Shown piece after piece: positions 3,001 to 6,000 of a DNA stretch of 64,000 nucleotides. This DNA is from Chrysomallon squamiferum (taxonomy: Eukaryota; Animalia; Mollusca): NCBI GenBank assembly GCA_012295275.1, contig CM022671.1, positions 7,378,001 to 7,442,000 of the forward strand. Direction: 5' to 3'. The stretch's first letter is position 1; each line of letters opens with the position of its first letter. The position numbers were made by a program, and so were the translations under genes. The notes under the pieces were generated by a model, which was not told where the DNA came from, made no database searches, and saw only the letters and a list, made by a program, of their open reading frames with translations.

Positions 3001-6000
3001 TGAAGGTGTTAAGACACGATATGTTGCCTGTGTTGTCTTTGGTCAGCCTGTCAAGGATGAGAACATGTGTAACAAAACAACTAAGCCTGAAGCAGAAATA
3101 CTGTGTAATGAGGGCACATGCCAGACTTCCAAAGACTACGACATTGCTGTTATCACAAGTAACAGTGTTGAGGCTACCAGTCACTGGAGAGTGGGTCCTT
3201 GGAGTCATGTATGTAAATCAGATTAGAGACTTGCATTTTTTTATATGTCCAATCACCAAAAACATATGTCAATAAGACTTCTAGAAGCAATAAAAGAAAT
3301 ATTTATTAGCATACCAGTAAAAACTTTTCAGTATAATGAAAGAAGTTTTATGATTCAAGGCGTCAGTTATAATTATCATAATAATTTGTTATAAAACATA
3401 TAAGCAAATAGAAATGATATAAATTTGATTATAATCTCACTTTTTCTATGTCCAATTACTATTAGCATGATAATAAACTTTTCAGTATAATAAAGGAAAT
3501 ATTATGATGATTCCAGAAGAGAGTTACGATTATCATAATAGTCAGTTATAAAAAAGGCATAATCAAAATAGCATGAATAGATATCTTCATATTATATGGA
3601 GAGTATTTTTATGTGTGATCTGATTAAGAATTTTATTAGTAAAATGTTTGGTATCACTGATTTAAAGTATGATTAAAAAATCAATCCTGCCAAAGGACAA
3701 TTATAACAATTATAAGGTTGTTTTTTTTTACTTAGATATAGCACCTTTTCCCTTTGTGCTGATTGCTAATTTGCAGAGAATGGATGACGCTTGATACGTA
3801 AGAATGTTTGAGGAACATTTAACATTATGCTTAATTTAACTCTTTCAGTGTTCTAGTACTTGTGGCACTGGTTGGCAAAGACGCCAGGTTGTGTGTCATG
3901 ATGAGAGAGGAAAGAGTGATGCATGTGACAAGTCCCAGAAACCTATTGAGGTCCGTAACTGTGATAGTGGAAGCTGTCCCAGATGGACACATGGAGAATG
4001 GACAGAGGTGGGCAAAATATAATAGTTTACAAATGAATTTTAAATAGGAAAATTCTCTGTTTCCTTAAAACAGTAACTAAGAAAAAGCTGTTCATTCACA
4101 AATTAATTATGGTATACTACAGATGGAGTGGTAGTCCATTGTCCAACATCCCCAGGAAGAAGCCATATTATATTCTGTTGTATATAAATACATATATGTG
4201 TATTGAATAAAAGTTGTTAGCTCTTGAATTATGTGATCCAACATTAAATTAAGTAAAAACATGTAGTACAGTTTCCATTTGTTTCTGTATTATAATGACT
4301 GTGTAAACTATCATTCAGATTCTTAACCAGTTGACAATCCATTATCTCAAAACTGAAAGCCTTTGAAACAAACTTTTTGTTTGTTTGTGAACAGTGTGTC
4401 TATATATAAAAAATATAGCTCTCAACAGTCATTTGATTTAAATGTTTTCAAAACATAATTAGAAATTTAATGACATTTAGTAAATTAAAACTTAACAAAA
4501 CAACTTATGATTCTTAGTAACATTTGGTTTGAAATGTTTTTCAGTGTTATGCACTGTGTCGTGAACAAGGACAGCAGAGTCGTCGTGTGTTGTGTCAGTT
4601 ACCAAACTCAGATGTCCTAGAGGAATCCAACTGTGACATCAGACAGAGACCAGCAGATACTCGTCTCTGCACAGGCTCCTGCAACACCTCCACGAACCAC
4701 TGGCACGTGAAGCCTTGGTCGTCGGTAAGACATACTTTCTCACATAACCCAGACCATTCAACTCGGATTAGTAATAGACCCCAGCAGTATATTCGTAGTA
4801 GAATAACTAACCACCAAAGACAAAATAGTAGAAGGAATCGAGTTGGTTCAAAAATTGATCTTTATCGTCAACGTCAGCGATTACGACAAGTTATACAATG
4901 AAAGATATGCACTTGCTAACAGGAGACACAGAGAGCAGCAGAGATCTTGGTACTTGCGTCAGAATGAGTCTTCAATTCGGAGATACTGGCAACAAAGAAG
5001 GTATCATCAGAGATATCGATCTCGTCAGATTAGGCAGTTAGAACAATCAAGACGTCGCCACTAATTTAATAGATTTTTTTTCTGTATCACAAAATTTTTA
5101 AAATTGGTAATTACAGCCATTTGTGACAAATTATAATGCAGATGGCAGGTAACAATCTAAATGGGACCAACTTGAAAACCAAAAAAATATGTATTTCATA
5201 AAAACATTACTTTAACCATAGCTGAAACTAAATTTGATAAATATTTGAAAATCTGATAAATAATACTGATGTCTTGAATTCTAGGCTGGAACATATTTAG
5301 ACATGAACTTGTCATTTCAGATTGCATTTTGTTTTTAAGCAAATTTGTCATTTTATTTTAAGCAAATTTGTTTAACACTGGAAAACAAATTGAATGTGAA
5401 AATACCTTTAATGAATAAAGATCTGTGGTGAGTTGTGAAATACATATCAGATTTAGCTGTGATGAAGTTTAAAAATTATATAAATCACAACAAAACTGAT
5501 TATTTTTCAAAATATAAAATGGACAAATATTGATCAAGTCATTTTTGTTTTATGTATGGACACTATTAATATACTTGTGGTTATGATCATGTGAACCAAT
5601 TTGCATTTTACCACTAAAAGCTGGGATGAGTGACCCATGTTTTTTTTTATGGTACAGTGCAATAAGAATCTTTGATCTGCTATGTTCATGGCAACATGTT
5701 TACCCAGGGATCATTGTGACAGTGTATATATTTTTATGATTCTTTTTATAATGTTGACTTAAAAATGGCATAATAAACAGTGGTTGTTGTTCTTTGAACT
5801 ACACATGACCCTAGACATCAAATCAGGGTGATTTTTAGAGGGGTTATTGAATTACGTTAATTTTTATATTCCTTATTATATGTCATAATATACATTATGA
5901 TATTACTTTTTTCTTCATGCATTGTCAGGTTGCAAAAATATTGAATATCAGGAATCATGGAAACTGTTTAGTTTGATATTATGAAAAGAATCTTTAGCAT

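What the first reader, a model, noticed from the sequence alone, without database searches (positions are those of the whole stretch)
4725..5064. Hidden Arg-rich alternative C-terminus of the ADAMTS protein, split by a +1 frame change at CAA-TGA-A
Seen: if the exon-6 donor (TCG|gtaaga) is ignored, the frame runs 58 more codons (13 Arg) to TGA 4899-4901. Skipping the T of that stop (CAA-T-GAA) enters a +1 frame of 54 codons (17 Arg) with the same R/Q/Y/H/S bias. Together that is 30 Arg in 112 aa, and the coding-like composition ends abruptly near 5064. It sits at the start of by far the longest intron (about 9.9 kb), with AATAAA near 5414. Established: +1 ribosomal frameshifting at a stop codon is the ornithine decarboxylase antizyme mechanism (UCC-UGA). 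Inference: a short isoform replaces the last 5 TSP1 repeats and the GON domain with a polycationic tail rich in RxxR convertase-like sites, possibly binding glycosaminoglycans or releasing cationic peptides. The two halves could be joined by (a) programmed +1 frameshifting, (b) a weak acceptor at 4890 (gacaag|TTATAC) that links WSS to LYNERY in frame, or (c) a 1-bp indel allele or assembly error. The sequence alone cannot separate these.
Basis: partly seen in the sequence, partly recalled or inferred. Interest (0 to 1): 0.8.

Follow-up and report, generated by a model that had tools for sequence, protein, structure and literature searches.

The report
Assembly error hides basic ADAMTS9 tail
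The apparent frameshift in this snail matrix-protease gene is one extra base in the assembly that sequencing data lack; the real sequence is a single arginine-rich reading frame, likely the tail of a short protease isoform that many other animals' gene models end at the same point.

Summary
The two Arg-rich frames are in the window as described, but the frame change is not biological. All 4 of 8 laid runs that cover position 4888 (three DNA-like, three studies; one RNA) lack one A there. Without it, exon 4545-4724 reads through its donor into one 112-codon ORF ending at TAA 5062-5064 (30 Arg, net +25, no Cys). Programmed frameshifting is refuted, and convertase motifs are depleted, not enriched.

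The tail itself looks selected. All 13 CpGs sit in Arg codons, a close relative has one collinear ORF, and 11 mollusc-like genomic read-throughs of this donor are basic and nearly Cys-free. GON-less gene models stop at this same junction in 12 of 24 and, in a fresh vertebrate set, 13 of 22 cases.

Best reading: a composite terminal exon made by intronic polyadenylation in the 9.9-kb intron. It would give a short ADAMTS9/20 lacking five TSP1 repeats and GON, extended in molluscs by a polycationic tail that likely tethers it to anionic matrix. A transcript crossing the donor was not shown here; the spliced long form is what RNA contigs show.

The parts
4545..4724 (+). Constitutive TSP1 exon of the ADAMTS9/20 (GON-1-type) gene, phase 0; ends at W-S-S inside the start of a TSP1 repeat
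   Evidence: RNA contigs of X6, X7 and X8 splice into it; 81% identity to Gigantopelta aegis P0001 1348-1411
4725..4730 (+). 5' splice site GTAAGA; used in the long form, read through in the inferred short form
   Evidence: X6 and X7 loose ends at 4724 match the exon at 14612
4725..5064 (+). Read-through tail ORF, 112 codons plus TAA once the extra base is absent: 30 R, 16 Q, 11 S, 8 N, 8 Y, 7 H, 0 C, net +25
   Evidence: collinear single ORF in P0390/P0391
4888..4889 (+). AA in the assembly where the runs read a single A: the spurious insertion that creates the apparent +1 shift
   Evidence: 4 of 4 runs that cover it lack one base
4899..4901 (+). TGA of the supposed shift site; out of frame in the read-supported sequence
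5414..5419 (+). AATAAA with GU-rich sequence downstream; candidate poly(A) signal
   Evidence: sequence only
5772..5777 (+). Second AATAAA with GU-rich sequence downstream; candidate poly(A) signal. Low-depth RNA contigs reach 5611 (X8) and 5704 (X6), past the first signal
   Evidence: weak
4725..14611 (+). 9,887-nt intron, the longest of 16 in the window
14612..19780 (+). Eleven downstream exons (rest of five TSP1 repeats and the GON domain, to TAA) found only in the long isoform
   Evidence: 17-exon model, 848 aa, 87.6% identical to P0001 1037-1884

Best explanation
The frame change is an extra A in the assembly at 4888, and the true sequence is one 112-codon arginine-rich ORF that likely forms a composite last exon of a short ADAMTS9/20 isoform. 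Inferred mechanism: in the 9.9-kb intron, cleavage and polyadenylation at AATAAA 5414 or 5772 competes with splicing from the donor at 4725. When it wins, the exon extends and translation runs on to TAA 5062. The product would keep the protease and upstream TSP1 repeats, lose five TSP1 repeats and GON, and gain a Cys-free R/Q/Y/H/S/N tail. In vertebrate models the same read-through adds only 0-3 residues; molluscs have elaborated it. Inferred function: loss of GON removes a reported LRP1-binding and ER-acting module, while the basic tail likely tethers the enzyme to anionic matrix such as heparan sulfate. Shown: the error, the single ORF, the coding signatures, the recurrence in gene models. 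Not shown: the transcript in this species, its poly(A) site, the protein, any binding.
For: (1) 4 of 4 runs covering 4888 lack the base. The same three DNA-like runs also lack a base at 5332/5337 and 5516 and read T at 5521, so the assembly has several errors here. (2) 13 of 13 CpGs lie at codon positions 1-2 in the read-supported frame, 7 before and 6 after 4888; the first 340 nt of the other 15 introns hold 0-2 CpGs. (3) P0390/P0391, whose exon is closest to Gigantopelta, have one 136-137-aa read-through. The first half aligns near its start (4-18 of 5,000 shuffles as good) and the second half at its end. (4) Among 33 hits, the 11 unspliced ones with the best exon-only scores (121-274) all have basic tails: 29-533 aa, 10-47% R, no Cys in 10 of 11. 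Their nearest named exons are gastropod or bivalve. (5) Biomphalaria, Candidula and P0394 tails align with each other (0 of 300 block shuffles), motif RLHYxLP. (6) GON-less models end at this junction in 12 of 24 (9 species) and 13 of 22 in a fresh vertebrate set; the rest scatter over about 10 and 9 places. Potamilus and Octopus vulgaris have both long and short models. (7) A mouse Adamts20 short isoform cDNA was cloned and used for versican cleavage (PMC2265537, passages).
Against: No RNA contig crosses 4724/4725. RNA contigs of X6 (depth 45) and X7 (16.5) show the spliced long form. Tail-region contigs are at depth about 3-5, and X6 has an equally deep contig in another intron (3978-4341), so pre-mRNA or DNA background explains them as well. 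The second-half match to the relative is weak (64-587 of 5,000 shuffles; BLASTP E 0.02). Tails of distant molluscs share composition, not sequence, with this one. Cephalopod-like and amphioxus-like read-throughs are not basic (P0408, P0416, P0148). The named long-form proteins of Gigantopelta, Patella, Lottia, Aplysia and Littorina came with no short model, and the shorter Haliotis and Ruditapes models keep GON. The hits appear to be ORF calls on genomic DNA, so read-through there is not evidence of transcription, and the query held half the tail, which biases towards basic hits. Gene models could stop here simply because a long intron splits annotations: Biomphalaria and Candidula genes are split at this point. 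Two variants in the tail are non-synonymous (4848, 5024).
Confidence: 0.75

Rival explanations
1. Programmed +1 ribosomal frameshifting at CAA-UGA-A joins the two halves, antizyme-like.
For: Only the window's letters.
Against: The base that creates the split is absent from 4 of 4 covering runs, a relative has one ORF, and the CpG phase runs continuously through the site.
Confidence: 0.01
2. The two-A form is a real minor or private allele of the assembled individual that truncates the tail after 58 codons.
For: Contigs drop rare variants.
Against: Three studies agree on one A, and neighbouring single-base insertions are missing from the same runs, as expected of an unpolished assembly.
Confidence: 0.05
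3. The tail is never expressed to any functional level. It is a decaying relic or a locally unmethylated intronic patch, and the short gene models elsewhere are annotation splits at a long intron.
For: No transcript crosses the donor and intronic background exists. Split models occur in Biomphalaria and Candidula. Tails diverge fast.
Against: Phase-locked CpGs, no Cys or stop, alignable tails within clades, and basic composition in 11 of 11 best unspliced hits are hard to get without selection on protein.
Confidence: 0.14
4. The Arg-rich stretch is an internal insert or separate cassette, entered by the acceptor near 4890 or left by a downstream donor back to exon 14612.
For: An AG precedes 4891 and the phase would fit.
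Against: No such joint in X6, X7 or X8; X6 is unspliced over 4832-4992. The ORF ends in a stop. None of the long proteins inspected has an insert here.
Confidence: 0.05

Closest known systems
Short isoform of mouse Adamts20 / two splice variants of human ADAMTS20
   Same: Same subfamily. A short isoform exists and was used in versican cleavage assays (PMC2265537 passages; 'two known splice variants', PMC549037 passages). The junction maps to residue 1422 of the 1,906-aa guinea-pig ADAMTS20; the mouse short form is recalled as 1,425 aa, which would be this junction plus 3 residues (recalled, not from a call).
   Different: Vertebrate models add 0-3 residues (V, VR, VRS), whereas this snail adds 112 basic residues. 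That the mouse form ends at this intron was not verified: the primary paper is not held.
ADAMTS2 short form made by intronic polyadenylation
   Same: Short ADAMTS lacking the C-terminal TSRs through a poly(A) signal in an intron (PMC3712723 passages).
   Different: Different gene and intron; no basic tail was mentioned in the passage read.
Alternatively included basic matrix-retention tails (PDGF-A long form, VEGF-A189, SOD3; recalled)
   Same: A secreted protein gains a C-terminal polybasic stretch that could bind heparan sulfate.
   Different: No sequence relation tested; here the tail is far longer, Q/Y/H-rich, and replaces domains. Binding is untested.
Ornithine decarboxylase antizyme +1 frameshift
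   Same: Only the superficial stop-then-+1-frame look of the assembly.
   Different: The site does not exist in reads, the codon is CAA not UCC (antizyme context recalled), and the frame is not split in a relative.

Membership tests
Antizyme-type programmed +1 frameshift | In-frame stop at the shift site present in the real genome and mRNA | tested here: not met
   base at 4888 absent in 4 of 4 covering runs
Antizyme-type programmed +1 frameshift | Two-ORF arrangement conserved in relatives | tested here: not met
   single ORF in P0390/P0391
Antizyme-type programmed +1 frameshift | UCC-UGA shift context (recalled) | tested here: not met
   window reads CAA-TGA
Antizyme-type programmed +1 frameshift | 3' stimulatory RNA structure | not tested
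   moot once the site was shown to be an error
ADAMTS9/ADAMTS20/GON-1 subfamily (host gene) | Long TSP1 array ending in a GON domain | tested here: met
   848-aa spliced model 87.6% identical to P0001, which carries PF08685
ADAMTS9/ADAMTS20/GON-1 subfamily (host gene) | Signal peptide, prodomain, M12B protease domain | not testable with these tools
   upstream of the window; no genome held
Composite terminal exon by intronic polyadenylation | Exon frame continues through the 5' splice site to an intronic stop | tested here: met
   112 codons, no internal stop in the read-supported sequence
Composite terminal exon by intronic polyadenylation | Poly(A) signal downstream of the stop within the intron | tested here: met
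   AATAAA 5414 and 5772 with GU-rich followers; sequence only
Composite terminal exon by intronic polyadenylation | Transcripts that cross the donor unspliced | tested here: inconclusive
   low-depth RNA contigs within 4832-5704 in X6, X7, X8, none across 4724/4725, with intronic background
Composite terminal exon by intronic polyadenylation | Mapped cleavage and poly(A) site | not testable with these tools
   only contigs were available
Convertase-processed cationic peptide precursor | Rx[K/R]R or enriched RxxR / dibasic sites | tested here: not met
   0 Rx[K/R]R; RxxR 3 vs 7.7 expected; [K/R]R 6 vs 8.0
Basic matrix-retention tail | C-terminal polybasic stretch on a secreted protein | tested here: met
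   net +25 in 112 aa
Basic matrix-retention tail | Heparin or matrix binding that depends on the tail | not testable with these tools
   needs a binding assay

The most novel reading that the evidence does not exclude
One intron of ADAMTS9/20 has been a GON on/off switch since before molluscs and chordates split, and gastropods and bivalves have turned its read-through into a fast-evolving polybasic tail of about 27-530 aa that swaps GON-dependent trafficking for matrix anchoring. It is largely missing from mollusc gene annotation.
Probability: 0.45. Interest if true: 0.62.

Novelty: new variant of a known kind. Interest (0 to 1): 0.42.

Why it matters
The headline claim (a frameshift-recoded matrix protease) is an artefact. 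What remains is useful. GON function is described as largely unknown (PMC12226136, passages), with reports of LRP1 binding (PMC6393521) and an ER-to-Golgi role (PMC3338439). A natural GON-less isoform cut at one junction in molluscs and vertebrates gives a direct test of what GON and the last five TSP1 repeats do. The mollusc basic tail suggests how the protease might be held in anionic matrix. None of the nine paper searches turned up a description of the shared junction or the mollusc tail, judged from listings and the passages read. The library lacks most subscription papers, including the original ADAMTS20 reports, and no supplements were read.

Tried and rejected
No whole genome is held. 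The genome index gave one answer: only a 41-nt AT-rich match near the end of the query in an unrelated genome. The orthologous intron DNA of relatives was therefore never obtained, and no dN/dS was possible. Protein word searches: exon plus first half found only P0001 among longer proteins (1 of 23 candidates) and nothing at similar length (0 of 3). The metagenome scan found no relative (599 pattern matches, none confirmed). The ESM Atlas gave no usable hit. Earlier-findings look-ups were empty. X1 and X3 showed no contig over 4516-5119 and X7 and X8 do not cover 4888; these holes prove nothing. Repeat or transposon origin was rejected: each DNA-like run has a single contig over the region. 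Window versus Plakobranchus tail similarity is treated as compositional. Rows dropped before the count: 8 of 32 GON-less proteins of 700 aa or more among 264 held (P0007, P0011, P0014, P0024, P0041: other genes or no long mate; P0251, P0254, P0261: partial GON). P0198 leaves at the same junction into other sequence and is not counted among the 12. Cluster listings show at most 15 of up to 40 members read, so tallies are samples. Script searches had wrong exon coordinates, fixed in 53 and 54. Rao 2003 is not held. No fold or complex prediction was run: the tail is low-complexity.

Full report
Host gene. The window's first 20 kb hold the 3' part of an ADAMTS9/20 (GON-1-type) gene. Seventeen exons from 42 to 19780 give 848 aa, 87.6% identical to residues 1037-1884 of Gigantopelta aegis ADAMTS9-like P0001, so the organism is a related gastropod. 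The finding sits at the start of the 9,887-nt intron after exon 4545-4724; the other 15 introns are 230-1,181 nt.

Observation. One detail is wrong. RxxR occurs 3 times against 7.7 expected from composition, and there is no Rx[K/R]R.

The frameshift is an assembly error. Eleven runs were listed and eight were laid. X2, X4 and X5, from three studies, each span 4420-5620 unspliced in one contig (depth 18.5, 72.4, 60), and all lack one base at 4888. An RNA contig of X6 (4832-4992, depth 3.1) lacks it too. The other four laid runs do not cover the site. The same three runs also lack a base at 5332/5337 and 5516 and read T at 5521, so the assembly is locally unpolished. With one A, the frame runs 112 codons without a stop: 30 Arg, net charge +25, no Cys. 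A rare allele cannot be excluded, because contigs drop rare variants.

The tail looks like selected coding sequence. GC is 0.40 and CpG o/e 0.96, against 0.27 and 0.11 for introns; the first 340 nt of the other 15 introns have 0-2 CpGs, this one 13. All 13 lie at codon positions 1-2 of the read-supported frame, 7 before and 6 after 4888; exons show 38/8/3. In-frame CAN codons number 23, against 2 TGG and no TGY. This fits Arg codons decaying to Gln or His being tolerated while Cys and stop are removed (inference). Shuffled tails stay open in 5 of 20,000 trials, and other donors read through 4-46 codons.

Relatives. A HMMER search with exon plus first half gave 33 hits. P0390 and P0391, whose exon is nearest to Gigantopelta, continue in one ORF of 136-137 aa. 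The first half aligns near its start (4-18 of 5,000 shuffles as good); the second half aligns weakly at its end (64-587 of 5,000). The 11 unspliced hits with the best exon-only scores all have basic tails (29-533 aa, 10-47% Arg, no Cys in 10 of 11), with gastropod- or bivalve-like exons. Cephalopod-like, amphioxus-like and fish-like read-throughs are intron-like or tiny. These appear to be ORF calls on genomic DNA, so they do not show transcription, and the query biases towards basic tails. Named models agree: Biomphalaria (288 aa), Candidula (88), Plakobranchus (525), Potamilus (27), Octopus vulgaris (5). Biomphalaria, Candidula and P0394 tails are alignable and share RLHYxLP, but they do not align with this snail's tail beyond composition.

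The junction is a hot spot across bilaterians. It maps to human ADAMTS9 residue 1452 and guinea-pig ADAMTS20 residue 1422, with 483-484 residues left. Of 24 GON-less models compared with long mates, 12 (9 species, including a catshark, sole, frog and amphioxus) read through here, one more leaves here into other sequence, and 11 end at about ten other places (8 of 32 dropped beforehand). In a fresh set of ten vertebrate clusters, 22 of 117 proteins of 700 aa or more lacked GON, and 13 of the 22 ended here, mostly with VRS then stop; the other nine ended at nine places. Annotation splitting at a long intron could add to this: Biomphalaria and Candidula genes are split here, and several fish models seem to be the only one for their gene. 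Potamilus and O. vulgaris have both forms annotated.

Expression here is unproven. X6 and X7 contigs splice 4724 to 14612 (depth 45 and 16.5). Low-depth contigs lie at 4832-5216 and 5446-5704 (X6), 4898-5165 (X7) and 5432-5611 (X8, which has a spliced end and so behaves as RNA). None crosses the donor, and X6 has a similar contig at 3978-4341 in another intron. Contig depth cannot rank isoforms.

Mechanism (inferred). Intronic cleavage and polyadenylation at AATAAA 5414 or 5772 competes with splicing across the long intron. The short protein would lose five TSP1 repeats and GON and gain the basic tail. GON was reported to bind LRP1 in a two-hybrid screen, and ADAMTS9 binds heparin and heparan sulfate (PMC6393521, passages). 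GON also acts in ER-to-Golgi transport (PMC3338439, abstract and passages). The likeliest effect is a less readily cleared, more matrix-bound protease. This was not tested.

Known context. A mouse Adamts20 short isoform cDNA was cloned and used for versican cleavage (PMC2265537, passages). Human ADAMTS20 has two splice variants (PMC549037, passages). ADAMTS2 has a short form from an intronic poly(A) signal (PMC3712723, passages). A review says isoform functions are described in few reports (PMC8275829, passages). Passages of PMC4133867, PMC4370697, PMC8871631 and PMC6119763 added nothing on this junction, and PMC12226136 only that GON function is largely unknown. The 1,425-aa length of the mouse short form is recalled; the primary papers were seen only as references, and no supplements were read.

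Verdict. There is no recoding. Approximate odds: assembly error 0.94; tail translated in some tissue 0.8; anionic-matrix tether 0.5. Interest 0.42.

Noticed in passing
window 5332-5337, 5516, 5521: Further single-base differences shared by all covering DNA-like runs; the assembly carries uncorrected insertions, so other apparent frameshifts in this genome deserve the same check.
   Followed up: partly
P0060 1203-1224, P0140, P0394, P0415: Conserved RLHYxLPxH motif early in the read-through tails of heterobranch-like snails; absent from this window's tail.
   Followed up: partly
P0390, P0391: In this close relative the exon start, the exon end plus tail start, and a mid-tail segment are tandemly repeated in frame; may be real or an assembly artefact.
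   Followed up: no
window about 420-700: About three tandem copies of a roughly 86-bp unit in the first intron (seen).
   Followed up: no
window 7835-7980 and 6598-7054: CT microsatellite and a T-rich stretch that give the only intronic stop-free runs of 112 codons or more.
   Followed up: yes
window 2720-2780, 5727-5829, 6344-6384: Short dispersed repeats hit by many unrelated contigs.
   Followed up: no
P0178, P0197, P0291 (312-313 residues before the end): A second, weaker recurring truncation point in vertebrate ADAMTS9/20 models.
   Followed up: no
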